DNA of 24,297 nucleotides from a virus (Duplodnaviria > Caudoviricetes): positions 1 to 24,297 of IMG/VR virus record IMGVR_UViG_3300030376_004069. One strand, given 5' to 3'. The notes below the pieces were generated by a model that saw only the letters and a program-made list of their open reading frames with translations, did no database searches and had not been told where the DNA came from. The first letter of the stretch is position 1; each line of letters opens with the position of its first letter. Below, piece by piece: positions 1,262 through 23,672 of the stretch. The position numbers and the translations under genes were made by a program.

Positions 1262-3378
1262 CTTAAACCATCCTCTCTTGCGTTAATTCTAAATGTTCCT
1301 AAACTCCAATCGTCTAAAGTTCCTGAGCTTTGCAGTTTCAAGCTCATCTGACGACCTTTAGCTCTTGTGCTAACTTTTGTTGTTGAGCTAGTTATGTCGA
1401 ATGGACCTTTAGTAACTTCGGTCGCATTCGGGTATTTTCTTGTATTTATAAAAAGAGACAAAGTTGTGTTCGAAGTCATAGTTACGTCTGGAATAACTTT
1501 GTCGACTAAATATAAACTGTTACCAGTGTTTGGTATTTCCCCTGCTGAACTTTCTATAAACGAGGTCATTGCTGAACCATCGTCGCTCGTTCCTGTTTCA
1601 TGATTGTAAAGTTTACCATCTGGATCAAATGCAAAAGGAACTGTTCTAGAGCCAAAAGAATCAGACCAAACTGTTCTATCCATAGAACCAATAGACCAAG
1701 CATTCTCTGCATAATTAAAAGTAACATAGCTGTCTGGCTCAGGGTTTGTTGCTGCTGTGTTTTCATTACTAACATAGAACCAAGTCACTTCTTTAAATTC
1801 TTTGTTGTGACCGACAGAAGTTTTGTCAATATAACGAGTTTGCATTCTGTCAAATACATAATATTGAACTGAGCAAGGAAGTTCTTTAACAACACCATTG
1901 TAAACGAAAAAGTTTCGTTTACCCATCCAAAAAACATCGCCGTCAACATTCATCATTGTATGTAAACCAGCGGCACCAGAGTTAGTTGCTAAAAGTCTAA
2001 AGCTAAAAATAAATGGTGGACCAACAAACGTCATGCCATAAATAGCTTCGTCTGTAGAGATAATTGTTTCTTCACGAGATGGAACCATAGCAACTATTTT
2101 AGTTCCGACTTGTAGTCTTTGGTCACCTGCTGTGTTTGTAGAAGTTGGTCCAAAGTCTGCAAAGTCTTCTTGATTAGACCAACGAACGAGCATTGGGTCT
2201 ACATCCCCACCACCACCAGCAGCATATGCTTGAGCACCACCAGCGATAAAATGTCTATCAGGGAAAGAAACTGTCGAAACTAATGTACTGCTTGGAACAC
2301 TCAATGCTCCGGAAAGAGAAGAGACTAAAACTGCTCTGTTGCTAACAGTGCCAGAAGTGTCCCAATAATAAATACCTCCACCACGAACAGTTGCTATAAG
2401 GTCTTCTCCCCAGAGATTTAAAGTCCAGTTAGAATTTGTTAGCTTAATGTCAGAGTCGGCTACAGATCTCGGAGTTCCCCAAGCTCCAACATTCCAACCA
2501 CCAACACCCCAACCTAATGCTGGGTCTGAGCTTTGTGTCCCTAGTCCATTGTCTATTCCTATAAGATAACCGAATGCAACTGCGTTACCACCACCTGCAG
2601 AAACTGTTGAGGTCGCAGCAGTAGGTGAGGTTATTGTATATGTATTTGTTGTAATGGAAGTTATCTGGAAGCCAGCCTTCCTATTTAGCGTTTCAGCATC
2701 AATACCACCTGTTTGAGCGGCTCCTGTTATTACAACAAAATCTCCTTCTTTGGCACCATGACCAGCATCTGTTATCGTGATTGTTGTGCTTGTGTCGGTT
2801 GTAGCAATTGGGTTTATTAAAATCTGAGTTACAACAGCACCAGTGTCATGCGTTGCAGCTGAGGTGCTATTAGTTCCTCTTGTGCAACCTGTTAAAATTA
2901 AACCGCTGATTCCTGTGTAAGTTATAATCTCGCTGTCTATTTTTATAGTTCCAGCAGTTTTAAAACCTTCAACACTTACAAGATCGATCTCAGTTTCGCT
3001 GGCATCTAAAGCCTCGTTAGTTGTAGTTGCATCATTAGACTTGTCTCTAAGAGGTGTAATATCGTAAAGGGATTGGTCTTGTATTATGTAAAGGTGATTG
3101 TGTGTACCAACAGCAATTCTGTCTTCGCCATCAGTTATTGCTCTCCAATTAACCATTGCCCGAGCAATGCCAGTAATGGTTGTTTCTGTGCTTGTAGTTG
3201 TACCAGCTGCATCAACTAAATTTATCTGATCTTTTTCCCAACCACCTATTTTTGTCGGATAGCCATTACGGAAACGCACGAGATCACCATCAACCCAAAA
3301 TGGACCTTGTTTCCCAGCAGAATATTCTGTTATATCTTTAACAATCCCTGGATTAAATTGTAACAGCTGAAGTGCCAT
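1258..3378 (-). CDS. Tail nozzle / tail tubular protein B-like (P22 gp10-like stabilisation protein)
   Basis: 706-aa beta-rich protein with motifs WVDGDLVRFRNGYPTKIGGW, VRWSNQED, TNTAGDQRL and VFWMG. Size and position fit a podovirus nozzle. Confidence 0.7.
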   Translation of the reverse strand: MALQLLQFNPGIVKDITEYSAGKQGPFWVDGDLVRFRNGYPTKIGGWEKDQINLVDAAGTTTSTETTITGIARAMVNWRAITDGEDRIAVGTHNHLYIIQDQSLYDITPLRDKSNDATTTNEALDASETEIDLVSVEGFKTAGTIKIDSEIITYTGISGLILTGCTRGTNSTSAATHDTGAVVTQILINPIATTDTSTTITITDAGHGAKEGDFVVITGAAQTGGIDAETLNRKAGFQITSITTNTYTITSPTAATSTVSAGGGNAVAFGYLIGIDNGLGTQSSDPALGWGVGGWNVGAWGTPRSVADSDIKLTNSNWTLNLWGEDLIATVRGGGIYYWDTSGTVSNRAVLVSSLSGALSVPSSTLVSTVSFPDRHFIAGGAQAYAAGGGGDVDPMLVRWSNQEDFADFGPTSTNTAGDQRLQVGTKIVAMVPSREETIISTDEAIYGMTFVGPPFIFSFRLLATNSGAAGLHTMMNVDGDVFWMGKRNFFVYNGVVKELPCSVQYYVFDRMQTRYIDKTSVGHNKEFKEVTWFYVSNENTAATNPEPDSYVTFNYAENAWSIGSMDRTVWSDSFGSRTVPFAFDPDGKLYNHETGTSDDGSAMTSFIESSAGEIPNTGNSLYLVDKVIPDVTMTSNTTLSLFINTRKYPNATEVTKGPFDITSSTTKVSTRAKGRQMSLKLQSSGTLDDWSLGTFRINAREDGLR

Positions 3379-3996
3379 TTATACTTTCACCCATTCGTAA
3401 ATTTTATTTGTTTCTTTTATTCGATGGTCTAAACCAGTATATCCACCGTTTATTCGTTTTGTTAGTTTTTTAATAACATCATCGCTGACACCTTCGTCGC
3501 ATATTTTCCAAAGGTTGTTTTTTCTAAAAAACCAAATAGCAGTTTCCATCGCATAATCTTCTTCTAGCAATGTCGGATTGCTTAAAACTTCAGGAACACG
3601 CATGTCTGATGCAAATGCTCTGACGTTGTTATATCCTGTTAATTGCAAAAAACCTCTGCCAATATATAAGCTTGCTTTTTCTTTAGTGTCGTTGCCCATT
3701 CTGTCGAAATAGACTTTTTCAGCTAGTGCTTTCGGATTCCTAGCGTATGGTTTCGCACTTTCCTCTGTTGGGAATCTGCTTGGCCAAACACGCATCATAG
3801 CCTCAACGGAATAATTTAAATTTTCTCTCGTTAATTTAAAAGATGCACTTTCATGAACAATCTGCCCGAGAAGATGAGCACCACGCTCTGGCGAAAGCTC
3901 ATAGTGTTTTACAATGCCACGAGCTGTGTTTGGTCCAAAAGAACCATCAGCATCACATCCGCATTTAGTTTGTAATAATTTAAGAGCATTGCTCAT
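3379..3996 (-). CDS. Endolysin, glycoside hydrolase family 19, with a short N-terminal peptidoglycan-binding-like segment
   Basis: GH19 motifs LGQIVHES, ENLNYS, YIGRGFLQLTGYNN and TKRINGGYTGLDHR. N-terminal LQ...DGSFGPNT. Confidence 0.9.
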   Translation of the reverse strand: MSNALKLLQTKCGCDADGSFGPNTARGIVKHYELSPERGAHLLGQIVHESASFKLTRENLNYSVEAMMRVWPSRFPTEESAKPYARNPKALAEKVYFDRMGNDTKEKASLYIGRGFLQLTGYNNVRAFASDMRVPEVLSNPTLLEEDYAMETAIWFFRKNNLWKICDEGVSDDVIKKLTKRINGGYTGLDHRIKETNKIYEWVKV

Positions 3997-14672: not shown

Positions 14673-15071
14673 TTATGTCGCTAAATATGCGGTGACTTCG
14701 ACATCTTCAGGAATAATCGACGTTAATTCGTCGTCATTTAACAAAAGAAATCTAACACCATTAATTGTTACTTTCTGGCCAGCATATTTGCCATAAGTAA
14801 CTCGATTGCCAGTTTGGGGTGTATTCATTTTCCAAGCTGCACCAGAGTCTCTGTCTCTGAAAGCAAGATCACCCATAGCTGCAATTCGACCATGAGCAGT
14901 TAAATACTCCTCATTGTCTTTAGAAACGCTTGGCAGATGTATTCCACCTTTTGTTTTCATTTGCACTTGATGGGGTTGAACTAAAACTTTCCAATTCAGG
15001 GGAACTGGTAGTTGGTCAGTTGTGACCGTTGAATCTGTTGATTCGTCTTTATATTCATGCTGATGAGACAT
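14673..15071 (-). CDS. groES: Phage-encoded GroES/Cpn10 co-chaperonin
   Basis: PLNWKVLV, mobile loop KTKGGIHLP, and GNRVTYGKYAGQKVTINGVRFLLLNDDEL. Start is ATG 15071 (SD GAGGA) or 15080. Confidence 0.9.
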   Translation of the reverse strand: MSHQHEYKDESTDSTVTTDQLPVPLNWKVLVQPHQVQMKTKGGIHLPSVSKDNEEYLTAHGRIAAMGDLAFRDRDSGAAWKMNTPQTGNRVTYGKYAGQKVTINGVRFLLLNDDELTSIIPEDVEVTAYLAT

Positions 15072-15072
15072 G

Positions 15073-15267
15073 TTAATCATCCTCTTCTAGTTTTTTTAAT
15101 GTTTCACCGATTATCTCAGAAGCTTGTTCTAAACCTTCCGCAATACCGACGTTCTTTTGATATGACTCAAAGTCGGAAACCCGACCTTGAATCAAGCTTT
15201 CAGCTATTTCTAGCCTTTTCTCCCTCAGATTCTTTTTTATCTGATTGAGTAGATCTGTTACCGTCAT
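15073..15267 (-). CDS. Conserved small helical protein upstream of GroES
   Basis: MTVTDLLNQIKKNLREKRLEIAESLIQGRVSDFESYQKNVGIAEGL...; perfect SD AGGAGGT before ATG 15267. Confidence 0.8.
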   Translation of the reverse strand: MTVTDLLNQIKKNLREKRLEIAESLIQGRVSDFESYQKNVGIAEGLEQASEIIGETLKKLEEDD

Positions 15268-15334
15268 TTTTGACACCTCCTGACATAGAAACGCCAGTTA
15301 CAAAAATGGTAACATCTTTCTTTTCATCTGACAT
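15200..15334 (-). CDS. Possible 44-aa microprotein overlapping the downstream gene by 68 nt
   Basis: MSDEKKDVTIFVTGVSMSGGVKNDGNRSTQSDKKESEGEKARNS; TAATG coupling and an AAGGA SD. Confidence 0.45.
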   Translation of the reverse strand: MSDEKKDVTIFVTGVSMSGGVKNDGNRSTQSDKKESEGEKARNS

Positions 15335-15477
15335 TAATATCCTTTCTTTTTCATTGTTTTTTTCTTTTTGGCCATAGGCTTTTTCTTGCCCTTCATAGCC
15401 ATTTTCTTCATAGGCTTCTTTTTACCATACATCGACTTGCCTCCTTTCATTAGTTTGCCGAAACTTGATCTATTCAC
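15334..15477 (-). CDS. Lys/Met-rich basic microprotein
   Basis: GTG 15477 (SD GGAGG) gives MNRSSFGKLMKGGKSMYGKKKPMKKMAMKGKKKPMAKKKKTMKKKGY. A second in-frame ATG at 15432 has SD AAGGAGG. Confidence 0.75.
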   Translation of the reverse strand: MNRSSFGKLMKGGKSMYGKKKPMKKMAMKGKKKPMAKKKKTMKKKGY

Positions 15478-16141
15478 CTTCGCCTCCTGGAATAAAAGGC
15501 AAAGCTCCGAACATTGACAAAAATTTAAATAGGTCTTTTGAGCTTCCTACTTTTTTGCCACCTTTGCCTTCTAACTGCATCGGACTTGTTTCTGTGTAAA
15601 CATCCGAAGGTTTTCCTGTTTTGCTCATCACCTGCTGACCTCTAAAATATGGTGCTACTTTAACGAGTGATTGTAAAGCTCCGACTTGTTCCATAGCTCT
15701 ATTTCTATGACGACCGTCATGTCCAACGAACTGAGCAACATTTTCTTGCGGAACCATATATTCTAGAAAAGGCACGTTGTCTTCAGGATTGTTAAGAGGA
15801 ATGCCAGACTCTATCTCAGCAGCATACTGGTCGACTGTTTTTTGCATTTGCTTTGCAATGTCTGGGTCTGCTGTATCTATCTGAGCAGCAATCTTTCTAA
15901 ATGTTTCTGGCTCTATTATTGCCAAGTCAGCTTGAGATTTGTTGGCTTGCTCTAAACTTTCTAAAATCGCAGTTGGTTCGTAAAGGCTAAACGCTTCCGG
16001 AAACTCTTTTTCTAGATTAACTAATTTTGTTCCCATTCGCTCGGCAAGTTCGTCAGCTGGCTTGTCTAGCTTACTCGCCAAAGAAGCCACCCATCTAAAG
16101 GCTGTGTCCCCTAGTTCAGCTAATATCCTGCCTTTGCCCAT
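15470..16141 (-). CDS. Protein with ParB/Sulfiredoxin-like motif
   Basis: 223 aa; VPFLEY...FVGHDGRHRNRAM resembles the ParB-N DGxHR signature. Confidence 0.55.
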   Translation of the reverse strand: MGKGRILAELGDTAFRWVASLASKLDKPADELAERMGTKLVNLEKEFPEAFSLYEPTAILESLEQANKSQADLAIIEPETFRKIAAQIDTADPDIAKQMQKTVDQYAAEIESGIPLNNPEDNVPFLEYMVPQENVAQFVGHDGRHRNRAMEQVGALQSLVKVAPYFRGQQVMSKTGKPSDVYTETSPMQLEGKGGKKVGSSKDLFKFLSMFGALPFIPGGEGE

Positions 16142-16563
16142 TAAAATTCCTCCACTGGCAAAACACCTAGATTGCCAGATAATTTAGAGGCAAGAGAACC
16201 GAAAAAACTTTTAGCTGGTTGCGTCAAAAGTTTTACTCCAGGAATCATCTCTAATGCGGAGAAACCTAAGTCTAAAGCAGCGTCGCCATATTCACCTTGC
16301 TGAAAGGATCTTGATCCTTCTTGTATAACGAGCGGTAAAGCAAGAGGTGTTAAATCTAAAAGACCGATATTGTCTATTAAATTATCAGCACGCATGTCTC
16401 CAACTAACATGTTCTTGCCTCTATCGTCAACTCCGATAAAATCCAATGCACCTCTAACTTTGTCTCTATATGTTGGACCACTTAAAAATCTTGCATCTGG
16501 TGGAACAGTTATAAATTCAGCTTTAGATGCAGCTTTTATTCCTTCTTCGTAAGGATCTGCCAC
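16141..16563 (-). CDS. Hypothetical protein (possible internal virion protein)
   Basis: 140 aa, GTG start in a TAGTG overlap with SD GGAGG; IGLLDLTPL...ALEMIPGVK. Confidence 0.7.
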   Translation of the reverse strand: MADPYEEGIKAASKAEFITVPPDARFLSGPTYRDKVRGALDFIGVDDRGKNMLVGDMRADNLIDNIGLLDLTPLALPLVIQEGSRSFQQGEYGDAALDLGFSALEMIPGVKLLTQPAKSFFGSLASKLSGNLGVLPVEEF

Positions 16564-16754
16564 TAGACTTGACCTCCGGAAAGTTTACTTGCTAATATTC
16601 TCAAAGTTTCCATAAAGCTTTTGTCTAGTTCTTTTGCAGCTTTAGCGAACTCTTTAGGAGAGATCTCGTCGGACTTAATTCCTCTGCGCTCTAAAAAGCT
16701 TTTTGCAGCTCTTATCTCTGCTTGTGCTACTTTTTTAATCGCTGCTCGTGCCAT
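16563..16754 (-). CDS. Small basic helical protein
   Basis: 63 aa MARAAIKKVAQAEIRAAKSFLERRG...; fills the operon gap. Confidence 0.75.
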   Translation of the reverse strand: MARAAIKKVAQAEIRAAKSFLERRGIKSDEISPKEFAKAAKELDKSFMETLRILASKLSGGQV

Positions 16755-16756
16755 AA

Positions 16757-16954
16757 TTAACCTTTTATCTTTTTATTAATGTATAAGACAGCAGCATAAA
16801 CGACAAGTCCAAAAACTGTGGCAACGCCAATATCGACCAAATGCTCACGCATGTTATAAATAAATTCAATGCCAGCTTCTACATCACTCATGCCACCACC
16901 TTCGCTAAAAGTAATGTTTTTTGTGCCAGTAAAAGTTTCTATTGTTTGTTCCAT
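16757..16954 (-). CDS. Small membrane protein (one C-terminal TM helix)
   Basis: IGVATVFGLVVYAAVLYI followed by NKKIKG; TAATG coupling. Confidence 0.7.
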   Translation of the reverse strand: MEQTIETFTGTKNITFSEGGGMSDVEAGIEFIYNMREHLVDIGVATVFGLVVYAAVLYINKKIKG

Positions 16955-17373
16955 TATCTAGCATTCTTTTTTTGATCTGGGTGTACTGGGGATCTTGTAA
17001 AATATTCTAATGTGCTTTCTAAATTTTTAACACGAGCCTGAACTTTAATTATCTCCATCATATGAGAAGCCATGCCACCAACATCCTCATGCACTAAGTC
17101 AATTTCTTCCCAGATGTCGTTGTCCGCATCTTCCATATCCTCATATATTTCAGCAAGGATATCGATCATTTCCTCGATATTTTCTTTATTCTGCTCTACA
17201 TCTCTTATCAAATTAGTTTTATCAGTAGCATTATTTTCAACAGTCAGAATATTAACTGTTTCTTCAAGGTTTGATATTGTGCTGGCTTGCTGTGCCGTCC
17301 ACCAAATAAAGCCACCGATCTGGGCAATCACGACACCTACGACAGCAATACTTACTTTGGGCATTTTATCCAT
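16954..17373 (-). CDS. N-terminal TM plus acidic coiled-coil protein
   Basis: Start at ATG 17373 (TAATG): VSIAVVGVVIAQIGGFIWW then heptad-like acidic sequence. Confidence 0.75.
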   Translation of the reverse strand: MDKMPKVSIAVVGVVIAQIGGFIWWTAQQASTISNLEETVNILTVENNATDKTNLIRDVEQNKENIEEMIDILAEIYEDMEDADNDIWEEIDLVHEDVGGMASHMMEIIKVQARVKNLESTLEYFTRSPVHPDQKKNAR

Positions 17374-17630
17374 TACCAAGCCTTACACGACCAATAGCGT
17401 GCCTTTGTTTTTGGTCCAGGATTGTCGCAGTTATGCCTTGCTCTAAAATTACTCCTGCGTCCTTTTTGATTTTTCTTAATACGCATATTAGGGTCGCCGA
17501 AGGTAACACGCTTCACTTTATCGCCATCCATAACATAAACGACTGACTTCTTTTTGCCATAGCTCGTTTCGCCTTTAGCAATCCTGCGAGGCTTATTTAG
17601 TTTTACAGTCTTGCCTTTGTACTTAGCCAT
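17373..17630 (-). CDS. Basic small protein (FGDPNM...RRSNFRARHNC...ARYWSC motif)
   Basis: 85 aa, K/R-rich, TAATG-coupled on both sides. Confidence 0.85.
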   Translation of the reverse strand: MAKYKGKTVKLNKPRRIAKGETSYGKKKSVVYVMDGDKVKRVTFGDPNMRIKKNQKGRRSNFRARHNCDNPGPKTKARYWSCKAW

Positions 17631-17791
17631 TACTTTTTCTTTTGCGCAGGTGTATGAACTTTTTGTATTTCGAATGAAGCTTTTTTAACTGCACCTTTAT
17701 GTGGTTTGTAATCACCTTTCATTAGTTTAAATCCTGAACCAGATTTCATCCAATGAAAACCTTTTGGTGCTTCAACTGCTTTTTTTGCCAT
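17630..17791 (-). CDS. Basic microprotein (53 aa)
   Basis: Hand translation MAKKAVEAPKGFHWMKSGSGFKLMKGDYKPHKGAVKKASFEIQKVHTPAQKKK; its stop overlaps the next ATG. Confidence 0.8.
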   Translation of the reverse strand: MAKKAVEAPKGFHWMKSGSGFKLMKGDYKPHKGAVKKASFEIQKVHTPAQKKK

Positions 17792-18047
17792 TTTTCTTTT
17801 TCCCTTTCAATAAATCGGAGTCTGCCTTTCTAGCTCCTCCTTTGCCACTTACAAAACTTTTTACCCTTCCCATTGCCCAAGCGTGTTGCGATGTTTTAGG
17901 TCTACTGCCAGAACTAAAATATGCACCTTGTCCTCTTTTATAAACCTGATCTAGTTTGGCTTTGCTGAATCTTCCTGCTCCTGGAATAGAAGAGTATCGT
18001 CCCATGTCCTTTTTAGGTTTGGCTTTTTTCTTAGGTTTTGTTGCCAT
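17772..18047 (-). CDS. Basic protein, DUF5824-like by recollection
   Basis: LDQVYKRGQGAY...SRP...QHAWAMGRVKSFV...ADSDL flanked by Lys-rich tails. Confidence 0.8.
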   Translation of the reverse strand: MATKPKKKAKPKKDMGRYSSIPGAGRFSKAKLDQVYKRGQGAYFSSGSRPKTSQHAWAMGRVKSFVSGKGGARKADSDLLKGKKKNGKKSS

Positions 18048-18229
18048 TAACTTTTGCTCCTTTGCTTGCTTATTCTTTGCATTTCTGCTTTTGTAAGCGT
18101 GCCTTCCCTGTATTTTTTGGCAGTCCTTTTTATTTCTTTCTCTCTTGCCTTAGGATTCTTCGCACCTTGCAGGTATTTTTTAGGAACACCTTTTTTGGTT
18201 TTAGCAACTTTTTTAAACTTTTTTGGCAC
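18047..18229 (-). CDS. Basic microprotein (about 60 aa)
   Basis: Likely start GTG 18229 (GAGG upstream) or ATG 18241: PKKFKKVAKTKKGVPKKYLQGAKNPKAREKEIKRTAKKY... Confidence 0.75.
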   Translation of the reverse strand: MPKKFKKVAKTKKGVPKKYLQGAKNPKAREKEIKRTAKKYREGTLTKAEMQRISKQRSKS

Positions 18230-18365
18230 TTTTCCTCGCATTCTTGAAATCAGATTTTTTCGGAGCACCTTTCGTTCCTGGCTTCCTCATTCTCTCGCCA
18301 GAACCAGCTTTTATTCGTTTCTTTTTAGCATTTATGTTAGCATATAATCCTTTTTTGCCAGCCAT
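18213..18365 (-). CDS. Basic microprotein (50 aa)
   Basis: Hand translation MAGKKGLYANINAKKKRIKAGSGERMRKPGTKGAPKKSDFKNARKSAKKV; TAATG coupling. Confidence 0.8.
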   Translation of the reverse strand: MAGKKGLYANINAKKKRIKAGSGERMRKPGTKGAPKKSDFKNARKSAKKV

Positions 18366-18487
18366 TACTTCTTCTTCTTTTTAAGCTTTTTAAAATCGGC
18401 ACCTGTGATTTTATTACGAGGTTTTGCAATAGCAGCAAGTTTCTTCTGCTTTGGGGAATATGACTTACTTCCTTTTGGCTTCGGCAT
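18365..18487 (-). CDS. Basic microprotein (40 aa)
   Basis: Hand translation MPKPKGSKSYSPKQKKLAAIAKPRNKITGADFKKLKKKKK; perfect SD AGGAGGT. Confidence 0.8.
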   Translation of the reverse strand: MPKPKGSKSYSPKQKKLAAIAKPRNKITGADFKKLKKKKK

Positions 18488-18488
18488 A

Positions 18489-18761
18489 TTAACCTCCTAG
18501 GATCTGATTCATCATAGAATGAACATCGTCGCCAGAGCCAACTTTCATAATTTTGACTTTAACATCCGAGTCGTGATCTTCCATCATTTCCTCTTCTTCA
18601 TACTCGTCGCCAATGCCATGTTGCATCTGGTGACAAAGCAATAAAAAGTTTACAAGCTGATCGTCGGTCATGTCTAGACCTTCGGAGTCGTGAGCGAAAC
18701 CCATTTTCTCCATGAAGAGTTCAGCATTCTCTTCCATATTTTCTACATTTACTTCAGCCAT
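18489..18761 (-). CDS. Acidic Met/His-rich small protein
   Basis: 90 aa with about 23 D/E, 11 Met and 5 His by hand count; SD AGGAGGT. Confidence 0.8.
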   Translation of the reverse strand: MAEVNVENMEENAELFMEKMGFAHDSEGLDMTDDQLVNFLLLCHQMQHGIGDEYEEEEMMEDHDSDVKVKIMKVGSGDDVHSMMNQILGG

Positions 18762-18770
18762 ATTAACCTC

Positions 18771-19244
18771 CTATTGGTTCATTTCCATATCTCTAATTCC
18801 GGACTCTACATCCTGAACTAGAATGCCAGCATTTTTAGCTCCCATCATTTCTCGCTCAGTCATCTCGACAACTTTACCATCGACCATGTAGCTCTTTGTT
18901 TCGCCACCACTCATCATACCACGAAGTGCACCACCAAGGCTTTGTAAAATAGACATAATGCCAGATGACTCGCCTTCAGTAAGTGCACCACCAGCCATAA
19001 CCTTTTGCTTGGTCATTTCTAAACCATCGATAATGTCTTTAGTTCCTGTTGGATCCATCTCCATAAGACCCATCTGAGCATTGTTAATCATTTGTATTTC
19101 GCCACTTGCCCTAGCTGAGTCCATTTCTGATGGTTTCATGCTTACTGCTTTTCCATCAACAGTGTAAGACATCTCCATCTCATTAGCAGGCATTTTTGCA
19201 TCCGCTGATAAAAGCCTATTCATTTGTTCTGTTTGGTCTGCCAT
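18771..19244 (-). CDS. Met-rich protein with an internal duplicated motif
   Basis: 157 aa, about 22 Met; SYxVDGKxVxM motif twice; SD AGGAGG. Confidence 0.8.
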   Translation of the reverse strand: MADQTEQMNRLLSADAKMPANEMEMSYTVDGKAVSMKPSEMDSARASGEIQMINNAQMGLMEMDPTGTKDIIDGLEMTKQKVMAGGALTEGESSGIMSILQSLGGALRGMMSGGETKSYMVDGKVVEMTEREMMGAKNAGILVQDVESGIRDMEMNQ

Positions 19245-19253
19245 TTCAGCCTC

Positions 19254-21023
19254 CTATGATGTTAATGCTGCGTTGTTAGCTGCAACAAACTGGTCGTATT
19301 GAGCTTGATTTGGGAAAGTAACCAGCTGACCAGAAGCTGGGTCTGTAACGGAATAAACCTGATTTTGTGCTAAAATATCTGCATCTAAGTCAGGGTTGTA
19401 TGCATCTGTGTAATTTGTAGAAATTAAATTGCCTTGCGCATCGTAGTCTTGCGAGCCGATTGCGACTTGCTCCTCGCCTATTTTTAAAACTGTTGGGTCT
19501 CCAGTTAGCCTATAATTAGAACCAATAGACTCAGGATTTATCAACGCACCATCAGCACCAAAGAAAGAAGTTGTTCCGTCTGGGTTTTCAACTTTACGAA
19601 CCATCTCATCGAACTGCTCTGGGGAATAACCGAACCTTGTTAAATAGCTTCCTATGAATCTGTCCCACATTCCTCCTGAACGACCACCATAAAAATCACC
19701 CATTATGTCCCTAGTTCCATAGATGTCTCTTGAGTATGGTTCTGCACCACTGTCAGTGAAAATACTATCAGTTACACCTTCACCACCAAAAATACCATCC
19801 TCATCACCACCACCAAGATCTGTTAAGTCTGTCATTCCCCCAGTTATATTGGAGCCATCTTCATTCACTTCATCTGCGAGATCAAGATCTATCAGCGACT
19901 CTCCCAAAAGACTCAAGCCACCAGTGGTGTCTCCTTCGCTTCCTGCGACAACAACCGAACCATCTGTGTTTACAGTATAGCTTCCACCAGACTCATAAGT
20001 TTCTGAAACACCATCGCCATCTAGATCTGCTGTGAAACCTTCGTTCACTATAAAACCTGTAGCAGTTGTTGAGCCATATGGGTCTAATGCAGCTGCAGCT
20101 GCTGTTGTATCATATCTAGTTATAAAGTCCTCATAACTTCCTGCACTACCTCCAGGAAGCAACTCGGCATATAGACTTGATGTAATATCGTCAGCATTTA
20201 CATTCGTGCCAATTTTTATTGTACTGCCGTCGGATCCTGTTATTTTTCCTGTTTCAGCATCGTAAGATGATCCTGCATTTGCACCAACTGTTGCTTCTAT
20301 TCCTACATCATCAGGAACAAGAACACTGTCTATATATGTTGTTCCATCATTAGGTGTAAAAAAGTTTGCAATACTTTCTATTACTGTGTTATCATTTTCA
20401 GCAGCTTCTTCAGCAGCATATTGCGCATTCGCTGCATCTCTTGCAGCAGCAGTTGGGTGGGAAATACCTCTGCTATCTATAAATTCTCCCACAGCTGTAT
20501 CAGCTGTTGTTGTATCAGCTGTTGCTGTGTCAGTTGTTGCTGTTGAGGTTGTATCAGTTGTTGCTCCAGGATTGTAAGTGTCTGTGTCAGCTGAACCAAG
20601 AGTTACAATTTCTGTAACAGTGTCAGCAGCTGCTGAACCAATATTAGAAGCAACATTAGAAATCGTCTCGACAGCTGCGCTCCCAGCGTCGCTAACAAAA
20701 TCAACTGCTGAACTGACTGTGTTGCTAATCGCCGAACCAACACTAGATATTGCATTTCCTATACTAGAAAAAATACCACCACCATCATCGTCATCATCGT
20801 CGTTACTGCTAGAGCTAGAAGATGATCCACCTCCTCCACCCCATCCACTACTTCCTCCAAAAAAGAAATAAGCAGGAACACCATCAGGACCAGCAACAGG
20901 AGGCAAGTTGCCTCTGTAGTCTTGAATAAGACTCTCCTCTTCTGGATTAATATATGCCAACATATGTGGCTGACCACCAATAGTCGTTTCTCTGGGGATA
21001 GAACTTAGTGCTCCATAATTCAT
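19254..21023 (-). CDS. Large acidic low-complexity protein, putative internal virion/ejection protein
   Basis: 589 aa. N-terminal GQPHMLAYINPEE...GPDGVPAY, poly-G/S/D tracts, an amphipathic segment and a Thr-rich linker. Only 4 Lys and no Cys. Confidence 0.7.
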   Translation of the reverse strand: MNYGALSSIPRETTIGGQPHMLAYINPEEESLIQDYRGNLPPVAGPDGVPAYFFFGGSSGWGGGGGSSSSSSSNDDDDDDGGGIFSSIGNAISSVGSAISNTVSSAVDFVSDAGSAAVETISNVASNIGSAAADTVTEIVTLGSADTDTYNPGATTDTTSTATTDTATADTTTADTAVGEFIDSRGISHPTAAARDAANAQYAAEEAAENDNTVIESIANFFTPNDGTTYIDSVLVPDDVGIEATVGANAGSSYDAETGKITGSDGSTIKIGTNVNADDITSSLYAELLPGGSAGSYEDFITRYDTTAAAAALDPYGSTTATGFIVNEGFTADLDGDGVSETYESGGSYTVNTDGSVVVAGSEGDTTGGLSLLGESLIDLDLADEVNEDGSNITGGMTDLTDLGGGDEDGIFGGEGVTDSIFTDSGAEPYSRDIYGTRDIMGDFYGGRSGGMWDRFIGSYLTRFGYSPEQFDEMVRKVENPDGTTSFFGADGALINPESIGSNYRLTGDPTVLKIGEEQVAIGSQDYDAQGNLISTNYTDAYNPDLDADILAQNQVYSVTDPASGQLVTFPNQAQYDQFVAANNAALTS

Positions 21024-21247
21024 GCTGCTGGTGCTCCTTGCTGTTGCGGTGGTGGCATTGCTGCCATGACGTTGCCAAGTGCACCTAGCTCGCCTTGATT
21101 CATTTTCTGGCGAATCTCCATTACTTTTTGCATCAGGTATTGGTTTGCGTCAAACGGTTGATTTCCTTGTTGCGGTGCTTGATTTTGAGGCAAGCCACCG
21201 AATGCAGCTGGATTTATTGGTCTAATAGAGGCTAACAATTCATCCAT
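21020..21247 (-). CDS. Small Gln/Pro-rich hypothetical protein
   Basis: 75 aa, overlapping the portal stop and the next start; GGAGG upstream. Confidence 0.7.
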   Translation of the reverse strand: MDELLASIRPINPAAFGGLPQNQAPQQGNQPFDANQYLMQKVMEIRQKMNQGELGALGNVMAAMPPPQQQGAPAA

Positions 21248-23672
21248 TTTTCATAGCCTCCATCTGCATTTTAGCTGCATTCTTTTCTCGTTCTAGTTGC
21301 AACTCAGCTTCTAACTTTAAAACTTTCGCTTCTAAGTCTGCACGAGCTTTGGCTGCATCGATTTCCATATCTTGTTTGGCTTCAGCTTCTTTAATTGCGA
21401 TTGAGGACTGTGCTTTAGCTTGGTCTGCAGCGATTTGGGCTTCCGTCCTAGCTTTGAGTGCTTCAGCTTCGAGTTGGGCAAGTTGCTTGGCATATTGTAA
21501 TGGATCCTGCTGTTGACCTTTCGGCTGAATTGCAGCAATCGCTTTCATCTGAGGTGCCTCTTGCACAACCTGAGCAGCACGCTGACTAATTAGCCTGTCT
21601 AAGTCTGGGTTGATATCTTCGAACTGGAAGTCAGCTTCTTTCAAGTCCGGAATAGTTGGTAATGGCACGCCAATACTTGCTTCCATTCGAGTTCTATAAA
21701 GCAACGCAATGTGCTCAGCAACATGGGCAACTAAAACAGGTTGCATGCCTGCAGCTCCAGGATTTCCAGCGAGCGATGGGTCTTGTAAAAACTGCATGTG
21801 AACTGCGATGTGCGATTCGTGATCTTGCTCTATAAATGCTTTTATCGGTTTGCCATACATAACAGACATATTTTCATCGATAGGATCTAACATAGGTGCA
21901 TCTGCAGGCTTGACCAATATCTCGTCAATATTAGGAATTCGAATCGCTTCATACATACGTTTGTATGCAGAATACATATCGTGCATGTCTGGTGCTGACT
22001 GAGCCATCTGTAAAACAGCTTGAGCCTGAGCAATCCTCTGGGCAGTAGAAAAAATGTTGGGGTCACTGACTGGGAGAATATCAATGCGTTCGTTAAAGTC
22101 AGCAGCGAACACTTCTGAGTCGCCACCTATCAACGAAAATGTAAACTGCTCCGGAAGGTTTTCGGCATTCAAGTCGGCTAGGAGCTTGAACTCTTGACCT
22201 TGGGAATAATGCAACCTTTTATGGATCGCAGAGAACGCTTTGCTGCCTTGTTCAATTAAGGCAACTGTCGAACCAACAGGTGCATTTGGGTTCACATCCC
22301 CAACATTGAGATCAGCTGTGCTAGCAAAACGCTGACCTGCCTCTACAATATAGCCGAGTAAACTGAACAAAGATCCGCTTGGTTCTTTGAAAGGCAATGG
22401 CATTATTGCTTTGTTAACATCGTCGACTGTTGCATCTAAATCGACAAACTCTCCAGGATTTACCTGAACCTCACCACCCGAAACTCTGCCTCTTAGCTTG
22501 AAGCCACCTTGCATATTGCTAAATGCAGCGGAGTCTAAAAGAGCTCGTAAGGATCCAGTTGCTGCTTTACCCAGACCACCAATAAGATGATATAAGCCAA
22601 AGCCATAAAAACCCAATCCAGGAAGGAACTTATAAGATACAAACCAATCCCTGCGTTTCTTTAGCTCGTCGTCTTCTTTCCAGTTACGACGAATGCTAAC
22701 AATAGATTCATTGTCATAGTCTACTGTAACAACATAAGGAATAGCAACTACATTGTCGTCGTCTGGGTCTTCTTCCTCGAACGAGTGGTAAACATGCATC
22801 TCTAAAAGAGTCATTATATTGTCTTGCGAGTCGTCGGCATACTGGTCGACACCTTCTATCTCGCCAATGGTATCGCCTGATGGATCTAAATCGCCACCTT
22901 GGTCGGTGCTTGGTAAATAATAGCCAGACTGAACATAACGATTGTAATCGTTTTTAGGCATGCGAATAACATGCGTGTATCTAGGTGAGGTGTATAAATC
23001 TTTGCTTTCCGGAGCGACAACGAAGTCTTCAGCTTTTACGAACTGCGAACATTGCCTGTCCATATTGCTGTCCCACCAAACCTTTTTAAATGTCTGGCCA
23101 ACGAGCGGTAAATGGAAAAGCATTTGATCTAGATCAGGGAAATACTCTGGCATCTCCTGCGTGATCTGGTAATTCATATATTCACGAACTCTGCGAGCTT
23201 GCTCCTCAAGTTCTTCACTTGGGTCACCAACGATAACTGTCTTGACTGGACCACCACTAGGATAAAGTTCAGCGATAGCTCTAGCATTAAACTGTGTTGC
23301 AGCTTCAGCAATCATAGGATGCACAACTGTGCTAAGTCCACGAGTGGCACGCTCATCCTCGGACTCATCCATACCACCATCTGGGTCTAGAGTTTTCAAA
23401 CCTTTTTTGTATCGTTCTTCCCACTCGGAGCGAGCTTCACGATCATTATTGTAATATGTAATGAGTTCAGATGCAGCAGAGTTGAGCTCTTTATCAGACA
23501 TCTCCTCAGCTAAGTTCTGGTCAAAGGTGCTGTCTGTTTCCGGAATATTGTCTAGCTCTGGGTCTCCGATTAAAACATCATCACCAATTGTTTCAACTTG
23601 TAAGTCATCAGCAGGAGCAGGTTCTGCAAAGGGAGCTAACTGTTGTTGAATCGCAACTGGTTTTCTAGCCAT
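21240..23672 (-). CDS. Portal protein (P22-like, long C-terminal helical extension)
   Basis: 810 aa directly after the terminase; VVHPMIAEAATQF, YKFLPGLGFYGFGL, APVGSTVALIEQG, and a C-terminal coiled coil. Confidence 0.9.
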   Translation of the reverse strand: MARKPVAIQQQLAPFAEPAPADDLQVETIGDDVLIGDPELDNIPETDSTFDQNLAEEMSDKELNSAASELITYYNNDREARSEWEERYKKGLKTLDPDGGMDESEDERATRGLSTVVHPMIAEAATQFNARAIAELYPSGGPVKTVIVGDPSEELEEQARRVREYMNYQITQEMPEYFPDLDQMLFHLPLVGQTFKKVWWDSNMDRQCSQFVKAEDFVVAPESKDLYTSPRYTHVIRMPKNDYNRYVQSGYYLPSTDQGGDLDPSGDTIGEIEGVDQYADDSQDNIMTLLEMHVYHSFEEEDPDDDNVVAIPYVVTVDYDNESIVSIRRNWKEDDELKKRRDWFVSYKFLPGLGFYGFGLYHLIGGLGKAATGSLRALLDSAAFSNMQGGFKLRGRVSGGEVQVNPGEFVDLDATVDDVNKAIMPLPFKEPSGSLFSLLGYIVEAGQRFASTADLNVGDVNPNAPVGSTVALIEQGSKAFSAIHKRLHYSQGQEFKLLADLNAENLPEQFTFSLIGGDSEVFAADFNERIDILPVSDPNIFSTAQRIAQAQAVLQMAQSAPDMHDMYSAYKRMYEAIRIPNIDEILVKPADAPMLDPIDENMSVMYGKPIKAFIEQDHESHIAVHMQFLQDPSLAGNPGAAGMQPVLVAHVAEHIALLYRTRMEASIGVPLPTIPDLKEADFQFEDINPDLDRLISQRAAQVVQEAPQMKAIAAIQPKGQQQDPLQYAKQLAQLEAEALKARTEAQIAADQAKAQSSIAIKEAEAKQDMEIDAAKARADLEAKVLKLEAELQLEREKNAAKMQMEAMKNG

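What the first reader, a model, noticed from the sequence alone, without database searches (positions are those of the whole stretch)
17373..18487. Cassette of six consecutive ultra-basic microproteins inside the head module: candidate protamine/histone-like genome-core system
Seen: six contiguous ORFs of 40, 50, about 60, 91, 53 and 85 aa, three of them absent from the ORF track. They are joined by TAATG or short overlaps behind one perfect SD. They are extremely K/R-rich (for example 16 of 40 and 18 of 50 residues, with 1-2 acidic). Two more basic ORFs lie nearby at 16563-16754 and 15334-15477. Established: tailed phages generally neutralise packaged DNA with cations and polyamines, not with a dedicated set of basic proteins. 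Inference: position between portal and scaffold implies late co-expression, so these may be packaged DNA-condensing core proteins, or injected nucleic-acid/ribosome-binding effectors.
Basis: partly seen in the sequence, partly recalled or inferred. Interest (0 to 1): 0.8.

Follow-up and report, generated by a model that had tools for sequence, protein, structure and literature searches.

The report
Swappable basic proteins inside phage heads
A marine phage carries six real, conserved, very positively charged small genes between its portal and capsid genes; their relatives in unrelated viruses sit behind predicted head-protease cut sites, so the proteins are likely packed inside the virus head, where they would bind part of the DNA.

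Summary
The six minus-strand ORFs are real: net charge +11 to +22, median dN/dS 0.04-0.15, like GroES and capsid genes. The phage is CRP-901-like. These are not protamines or histones but distinct virus families: B4 is DUF5824; B6 folds (pLDDT 90, no solved match) and is probably Tlr6F/DUF5754, an unexplained protein of phages, Polinton-like and giant viruses. In longer proteins, B6's start Met is replaced by the T4 prohead-protease motif [LIVMF]xE in 82 of 129 contexts (background 3.4%); B6 is also fused to head proteases and a portal. Relatives keep 4-8 such genes (31 of 32) and swap apparently unrelated ones slot by slot (B5 or KHYF: 17/15, never both). Best reading: head-internal proteins like T4 IPI-III that likely bind DNA and screen only part of its charge; ejected effectors remain possible. 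None of the six was shown in a virion or on DNA here. The scan noted a similar cassette in another phage (e1-6027743).

The parts
18365..18487 (-). B1, 40 aa, net +15; first slot, usually alternating with the MPVMK family in relatives
18213..18365 (-). B2, 50 aa, net +16; PHROG 16028; also a domain of polyproteins flanked by LxE or xxGG motifs; alternates with a DUF5872 gene pair
18047..18229 (-). B3, 60 aa from GTG (start inferred; 73 aa from 18268), net +19; PHROG 38321; always with B4 in the relatives examined
17772..18047 (-). B4, 91 aa, net +22; DUF5824 (PF19141) C-terminal half, predicted helical core with Lys-rich tails
17630..17791 (-). B5, 53 aa, net +11; alternates strictly with the KHYF family
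17373..17630 (-). B6, 85 aa, net +21; PHROG 7595; probable Tlr6F/DUF5754; folded, invariant H66, C68, W80, C82, W85
15334..15477 (-). B7, 47 aa (GTG start matches MNR[AT]S starts of relatives), net +20; last basic gene before GroES region
16563..16754 (-). 63 aa, mildly basic (net +6), conserved neighbour; not ultra-basic
18489..18761 (-). ac90, 90 aa, net -19; conserved acidic gene directly upstream of the cassette (possible acidic partner, untested)
18493..18498 (-). Shine-Dalgarno AGGAGG before B1
   Evidence: sequence
21240..23672 (-). Portal protein (upstream landmark)
   Evidence: PHROG 1216, E 4.6e-42
14673..15080 (-). GroES co-chaperonin (downstream landmark)
   Evidence: PF00166
11788..12696 (-). 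Major capsid protein (downstream landmark)
   Evidence: PF25209, PHROG 371

Best explanation
The six genes are real, conserved small basic proteins of a CRP-901-like roseophage that are likely made late and likely packed inside the head, where they would bind the packaged DNA and screen part of its charge, as T4's internal proteins IPI-III do. Shown: the genes, their charge, purifying selection, their place between portal and capsid genes, their slot-wise exchange in relatives, and the occurrence of the B2, B4 and B6 domains in polyproteins and fused to head proteases and a portal. Inferred: cleavage at the flanking motifs, hence presence in the procapsid; that the free genes here give the same mature products that proteases release elsewhere (B6 then begins with the same Ala); DNA binding through Lys-rich tails on small folded cores. 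Estimated: tens to about 200 copies each, screening 10-25% of the phosphate, not protamine-like full condensation. Some members may also be ejected with the DNA.
For: (1) B6 in the best 150 of 4,098 50%-identity representatives: 142 internal, 129 distinct upstream 6-mers; 82 of 129 end in [LIVMF]xE exactly at the position of B6's Met1 (3.4% per position elsewhere), next residue Ala in 121 of 129, 13 have K, 18 have A. T4 gp21 cuts after L/I-X-E, first found at a Glu-Ala bond (PMC9026906 section 2.5). (2) B2 in 36 distinct internal contexts: 17 behind LxE, 14 behind xxGG (background 2.2%; GG again downstream in 10 of 10), 5 other. (3) Fusions: XkdF-type protease PF14550 in 15 of 120 longer hits, mostly one close group; ICP1 gp125, described as putative capsid maturation protease, has B6 at 193-258 (E 5e-12) after ELVK|A, a motif repeated in its scaffold; weak B6 match in the CL131 portal. 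(4) Position: 206 family hits in 210 kb upstream of GroES against 2 in 409 kb downstream; B2 next to head/packaging genes in 36 of 80 other loci, right after the capsid gene in P-SCSP1u; B3+B4 between minor head and scaffold-like genes in MED4-184. (5) S-CREM2 gp160, found in virions (7 peptides, 13.1%; PMC10665884 Table 3), carries the DUF5872-type family that replaces B2 in relatives (E 1.5e-22) behind ISE|G. (6) Hosts of B6/B2 carriers include SAR11, roseobacters, cyanobacteria, Flavobacterium, Vibrio and an archaeal spindle-shaped virus, which favours a host-independent partner such as DNA.
Against: None of B1-B6 was found in a virion proteome in the papers read; the CRP-901 paper has no mass spectrometry. 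Tlr6F of the virophage PgVV gave only a few sub-threshold peptides in purified particles. The S-CREM2 authors warn of co-purification, the peptide positions are unknown, and that family is a slot-mate, not one of the six. The P-SCSP1u cryo-EM paper does not mention the B2 gene. Only 6 of 34 non-CRP-901 B6 loci had a named head neighbour (most neighbours unnamed). B1-B7 lack the Gly-Ala-Leu tag that four neighbours carry. Strict slot exclusivity suggests specific jobs rather than bulk charge. I did not check that each polyprotein contig encodes a gp21-type protease (known T4-like only for HTVC008M, Melnitz, S-CREM2). No DNA-binding data.
Confidence: 0.55

Rival explanations
1. They are packaged but act mainly after ejection, as anti-defence or host-takeover effectors (as T4 IPI blocks a type IV restriction enzyme).
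For: T4 IPI precedent; mix-and-match gene content; folded cores with invariant residues; enzymes such as cytidylyltransferase share the polyproteins and are found in virions.
Against: Strong purifying selection and 60-80% identity of B2 across viruses of SAR11, cyanobacteria and roseobacters are unlike arms-race genes; B6 also occurs in an archaeal virus and probably in viruses of algae.
Confidence: 0.2
2. They are procapsid assembly helpers (core components that pair with acidic partners such as ac90 or the scaffold) and leave or are degraded before or during packaging.
For: Fusions to head proteases and a portal; a conserved acidic gene (net -19) heads the cassette; T4 IPIII loss slows head assembly.
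Against: The basic domain is cut out whole (median net +15 against -4 per 85 aa for the rest) rather than chopped as scaffolds are; variable gene sets are unusual for an assembly core.
Confidence: 0.12
3. They are late intracellular nucleic-acid-binding proteins that are not packaged in this phage; the head-module location only gives late expression.
For: No direct virion detection; weak Tlr6F signal in PgVV particles; no Gly-Ala-Leu tag; many B6 loci without a named head neighbour.
Against: Protease-site flanks in at least three motif systems and fusions to head proteins; B3 and B7 give no tryptic peptide of 7-30 aa and B2 only one, so standard proteomics would miss them.
Confidence: 0.13

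Closest known systems
T4 internal proteins IPI, IPII, IPIII (PMC9026906; passages and section 2.5 read)
   Same: Small, basic, several unrelated proteins, variable among relatives; packaged at about 360 copies, bind DNA at low salt, processed by the prohead protease at L/I-X-E; homologues of B2, B4, B6 carry that motif in T4-like phages.
   Different: No sequence link found to IPs; here the genes are free-standing in a roseophage head module with no propeptide or CTS; the families are far more conserved and widespread than IPs.
Tlr6F / DUF5754 (PF19058) of Polinton-like viruses, virophages, giant viruses and phages (PMC4642659, PMC12220804, bioRxiv 2022.07.28.501842; passages read)
   Same: B6 relatives match PF19058 over the B6 domain (P0070 E 1e-5); Atlas neighbour cluster 25% DUF5754 at score 0.97; weak fold matches in Tunisvirus and CeV.
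   Different: B6 itself has no Pfam hit and 8 of 40 relatives hit only below the cut-off; the papers read give Tlr6F no function.
DUF5824 (PF19141) and DUF5872 (PF19197)
   Same: B4 passes the DUF5824 cut-off (40.6 bits, cut-off 25); slot-mates of B2 match DUF5872 halves.
   Different: B4 covers only model positions 69-122 of 127; no paper in the library names DUF5824.
Protamine-like and histone-like core proteins of eukaryotic DNA viruses (baculovirus P6.9, adenovirus VII, viral histones; recalled, plus search listing)
   Same: Small, very basic, proposed to sit on the packaged genome.
   Different: Lys-rich rather than Arg-rich, six or more unrelated families instead of one, folded non-histone cores, and room for only partial neutralisation in a densely packed phage head.

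Membership tests
T4-type internal proteins (IPI-III) | Small and basic | tested here: met
   40-91 aa, net +11 to +22
T4-type internal proteins (IPI-III) | Present inside mature virions | not testable with these tools
   No proteome of this phage group found; only indirect virion data
T4-type internal proteins (IPI-III) | N-terminal capsid-targeting propeptide cut at L/I-X-E | tested here: not met
   The window's genes start at the mature N-terminus; the motif is present only in polyprotein homologues
T4-type internal proteins (IPI-III) | Sequence or fold homology to IPI/II/III | tested here: inconclusive
   No hit in Pfam, PHROGs named families or PDB
Tlr6F / DUF5754 | Pfam PF19058 score above cut-off (B6) | tested here: inconclusive
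   B6 no hit; 8 of 40 relatives below cut-off, best E 0.0056; P0070 25.9 bits against 27.4; precomputed PF19058 on 11 of 120 longer hits
DUF5824 | Pfam PF19141 score above cut-off (B4) | tested here: met
   E 3.5e-10, 40.6 bits, C-terminal half only
DUF5824 | N-terminal half supplied by B3 (split gene) | tested here: inconclusive
   B3 and B4 co-occur 9 of 9; B3 profile hits upstream of B4 in polyproteins only weakly (best E 0.0025); no Pfam hit
Protamines / P6.9-like | Arg-dominated, simple-sequence polycation | tested here: not met
   98 K against 25 R in 379 aa; conserved aromatic, Cys and His core in B6
Histones / HU-IHF | Histone or HU fold | tested here: inconclusive
   No Pfam or NCBIfam hit for B1-B7; B6 and B4 models give no significant PDB match; B1, B2, B3, B5 not modelled
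Any DNA-condensing core protein | Binds and compacts DNA | not testable with these tools
   Charge only

The most novel reading that the evidence does not exclude
Aquatic viruses of three different kinds (tailed phages, Polinton-like/giant viruses, archaeal spindle-shaped viruses) share a toolkit of small basic genome-core proteins, with Tlr6F as its most constant member. In tailed phages it is built from a few functional slots filled by interchangeable unrelated proteins and delivered either as free genes or as protease-cut polyproteins: an unrecognised viral 'chromatin' missed because trypsin destroys the peptides and gene callers skip the genes.
Probability: 0.35. Interest if true: 0.85.

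Novelty: new variant of a known kind. Interest (0 to 1): 0.62.

Why it matters
If right, it gives a first testable function to Tlr6F/DUF5754, described in 2015 as conserved across Polinton-like viruses, virophages, giant viruses and phages with no known structure or function, and to DUF5824, DUF5872 and several PHROG families. B6 alone has 4,098 clusters at 50% identity and a fold without a solved match. It would mean that abundant marine phages routinely carry protein on their packaged DNA, which bears on particle stability, ejection and virion nitrogen content. Cultured models exist (CRP-901, HTVC008M, S-CREM2, P-SCSP1u).

Tried and rejected
Artefact of A-rich sequence: rejected by dN/dS and family matches. 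PDB sequence search: no hit for B2, B6; one chance hit (E 0.15) for B4. Fold searches: no match for B6 (Foldseek best E 1.3; VIA best Z 2.2) or B4 (best E 2.2); absence is not proof of a new fold. NCBIfam: nothing for B1-B7. B1 and B3 gave no tblastn match in cultured phages. Homology between slot alternates: not detected (hhalign probability B5/KHYF 4.7%, B2/DUF5872-N 1.3%), though B5 and KHYF both have two His around a Gly-x-Met word, so remote kinship is not excluded. Promoter/terminator scan at chance level. RNA runs: all holders on record as RNA had small word shares; contigs from four metatranscriptomes cover parts of the cassette but cannot show level, strand or timing; not used as evidence. 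Cyanophage cytidylyltransferases match only the N-terminal enzyme part of the polyprotein, not the basic domains. In one search three XkdF-fusion rows were mis-anchored by my pattern; one search uses profile alignment instead. Downstream LxE after B2 (17 of 17 in 24 aa) is weak because about half of random windows would have one. The eLife ICP1 paper has no data on gp125. Literature searches that found no description of this cassette or of a function for these families: (open-licence library only; supplements not read, so virion tables there may hold these proteins).

Full report
OBSERVATION. The six ORFs exist as described on the minus strand: B1 18365-18487 (40 aa, net +15), B2 18213-18365 (50, +16), B3 18047-18229 (60 from GTG, +19), B4 17772-18047 (91, +22), B5 17630-17791 (53, +11), B6 17373-17630 (85, +21). 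Three junctions are TAATG and two are overlaps of 17 and 20 nt. A seventh strongly basic gene, B7, lies at 15334-15477 (+20); 16563-16754 is only +6. A very acidic gene (ac90, -19) lies directly upstream. Most other genes of the module are acidic or neutral. Against distinct homologues of at least 70% identity, median dN/dS is 0.15, 0.13, 0.09, 0.09, 0.10, 0.04 for B1-B6 and 0.08 for B7, against 0.11 for GroES and 0.075 for the capsid gene (Nei-Gojobori, unsaturated pairs only, 6-42 pairs for B genes). They are protein-coding genes.

THE PHAGE. The window holds terminase, portal, GroES and major capsid genes in the order of Roseobacter phage CRP-901, whose gp67 is 93% identical to B6. CRP-901-type phages infect the CHAB-I-5 roseobacters and are widespread (PMC10149686, passages); that text has no mass spectrometry. 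In the CRP-901 record three basic ORFs before gp67, B5 among them, are not annotated.

FAMILIES. B4 is the C-terminal half of DUF5824. B2, B3, B4, B6 match PHROGs of unknown function. B6 has relatives in 34 of 50,697 cultured-phage records, including pelagiphages, T4-like HTVC008M and Melnitz, Flavobacterium phages and two Nitrosopumilaceae spindle-shaped viruses, and 4,098 representatives at 50% identity. B2 matches 57 records, mostly T7-like cyano-, pelagi- and roseophages, at 60-80% identity. B6 folds with pLDDT 90 into hairpins, a small sheet and two helices with invariant H66, C68, W80, C82, W85; no solved structure matches. B4 has a helical core with disordered Lys-rich tails, also unmatched. 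B6 is probably Tlr6F/DUF5754: relatives hit PF19058 just under the cut-off, an Atlas neighbour cluster carries it in 25% of members, and PMC12220804 equates the two names (passage). Yutin et al. describe Tlr6f as conserved in nearly all Polinton-like viruses, several virophages, many giant viruses and some phages, with no known structure or function (PMC4642659, passage).

THE CASSETTE IN RELATIVES. Among 80 loci chosen by GroES, 29 span ac90 to GroES; 28 of these carry 4-7 genes from 14 basic families and one carries 2 (the family profiles were built from B6-selected loci). There are 206 family hits in 210 kb upstream of GroES and 2 in 409 kb downstream. Pooling both selections (48 loci, 32 after dereplication at 95% GroES identity): B6 in 31, B7 in 29; B5 in 17 and KHYF in 15, never both, never neither; B2 in 16 and a DUF5872 gene pair in 13, never both, neither in 3; B1 and MPVMK both in 3, neither in 2; B3 and B4 together in 7 and never apart. 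On a backbone tree these labels change 5-8 times, and seven of the eight pure three-slot combinations have at least one clean example, the eighth type (B1, DUF5872, KHYF) too, so all eight occur; kin still share labels more than shuffles, so the Fisher values overstate independence. No homology between alternates was detected. This looks like a few functional slots filled by interchangeable proteins; replacement by recombination at shared flanks is an alternative cause.

EVIDENCE FOR A PLACE INSIDE THE HEAD. First, protease motifs. In the best 150 representatives, 142 carry B6 internally; of 129 distinct upstream contexts 82 end in [LIVMF]xE exactly where the free gene has Met1 (3.4% per position elsewhere in the same proteins), the next residue is Ala in 121, and P2 and P4 vary freely (an earlier set gave 55 of 72). 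T4 gp21 cuts after L/I-X-E, first seen at a Glu-Ala bond (PMC9026906 section 2.5). Cleavage would give the same N-terminal Ala that Met removal gives the free protein. Thirteen contexts have Lys instead, as in fusions to the XkdF-type protease and ICP1 gp125 (ELVK|A, repeated in its scaffold). B2 lies behind LxE in 17 and behind xxGG in 14 of 36 distinct internal contexts. Second, fusions to head proteins: ICP1 gp125, the putative maturation protease in the capsid operon (PMC9040626, PMC8096241, passages), whose B6 part also matches a minor-head PHROG; ChaB/XkdF proteins; and, weakly, the CL131 portal, a protein found in virions (PMC6293099, passages). Third, the families join each other in polyproteins: 21 of 150 B6 proteins carry a second family; HTVC008M has B2, B4 and B6 in three nearby genes. 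Fourth, position in other phages: B2 has a head or packaging neighbour in 36 of 80 loci, often between terminase and portal. Fifth, S-CREM2 gp160, detected in virions with 7 peptides (PMC10665884 Table 3), carries the DUF5872-type slot-mate of B2 behind ISE|G.

EVIDENCE AGAINST OR MISSING. None of the six was seen in a virion proteome in the papers read. PgVV Tlr6f gave a few sub-threshold peptides in purified particles and none in infected cells (bioRxiv 2022.07.28.501842, passages). The S-CREM2 authors allow co-purification. The P-SCSP1u structure paper does not mention its B2 gene. Only 6 of 34 other B6 loci have a named head neighbour, most neighbours being unnamed. The basic proteins lack the Gly-Ala-Leu tag of their neighbours, so how they would enter this head is unknown. 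Trypsin would leave 0-4 usable peptides per protein (none for B3 and B7), which can explain non-detection but is not evidence of presence.

MECHANISM. Most likely the proteins are co-translated from the late head operon, enter the procapsid, and end up on the DNA through Lys-rich tails, with small folded cores giving slot-specific roles. With a 53-kb genome (CRP-901's size) and an assumed inner diameter of 55-65 nm, full neutralisation would take about 860 copies of each of B1-B7 and 34-56% of the capsid volume; 10-25% takes 86-215 copies each and 3-14%. So partial screening or organisation is feasible and protamine-like condensation is not. The spread of B2 and B6 over viruses of very different hosts favours DNA as the partner over a host protein. 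Ejected effectors (0.2), assembly helpers (0.12) and unpackaged late proteins (0.13) remain.

COMPARISON AND NOVELTY. It is not a member of that family by sequence or propeptide, nor a protamine or recognisable histone. The families are known as DUFs; I found no paper that links them to head proteases, to each other or to a slot-wise cassette (open-licence library, supplements not read). The scan noted a comparable cassette in another phage (e1-6027743, unchecked note). Verdict: new variant of a known kind, interest 0.62.

Noticed in passing
window 19254-21023, 18771-19244, 16141-16563, 15470-16141: Four non-basic neighbours carry a Gly-Ala/Val-Leu word near an end, as in earlier finding e1-9509217; the basic proteins do not.
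   Followed up: partly
proteins P0245, P0280, P0288, P0313 and others: A recurring xxGG motif (LASGG, YAEGG, MAKGG, KKDGG) brackets the B2 domain in one class of phage polyproteins; it resembles Gly-Gly cleavage sites of adenovirus and African swine fever virus proteases (recalled). The phage protease is unidentified.
   Followed up: partly
L246:3709-4545 and 2639-3700 (ICP1 gp125, gp124): ELVK|A/S-type motifs repeat through the ICP1 scaffold and precede the B6 domain of the protease, suggesting the protease's cut site.
   Followed up: no
window 18489-18761: ac90, a conserved Asp/Glu/Met/His-rich 90-aa protein, heads the cassette in all spanning relatives (they were chosen by it); possible acidic chaperone or core protein.
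   Followed up: partly
L085:5289-6344 (P-GSP1): A 351-aa protein of net charge +91 next to the terminase region, near B2 and a DUF6321 gene.
   Followed up: no
L084:4419-5616 (MED4-184): Five small basic ORFs, including B3 and B4 relatives, between the minor head protein and scaffold-like gene of a cyanophage of another type.
   Followed up: partly
L082:899-7207 (HTVC008M): A run of genes rich in [LIV]xE motifs, including the cytidylyltransferase fused to DUF5824, that looks like a head-cargo region.
   Followed up: partly
window 15470-17373 and same interval in L001-L081: Large variable acidic genes (140-950 aa) are inserted between the basic genes in relatives, making the interval 2.4-9.4 kb long.
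   Followed up: no
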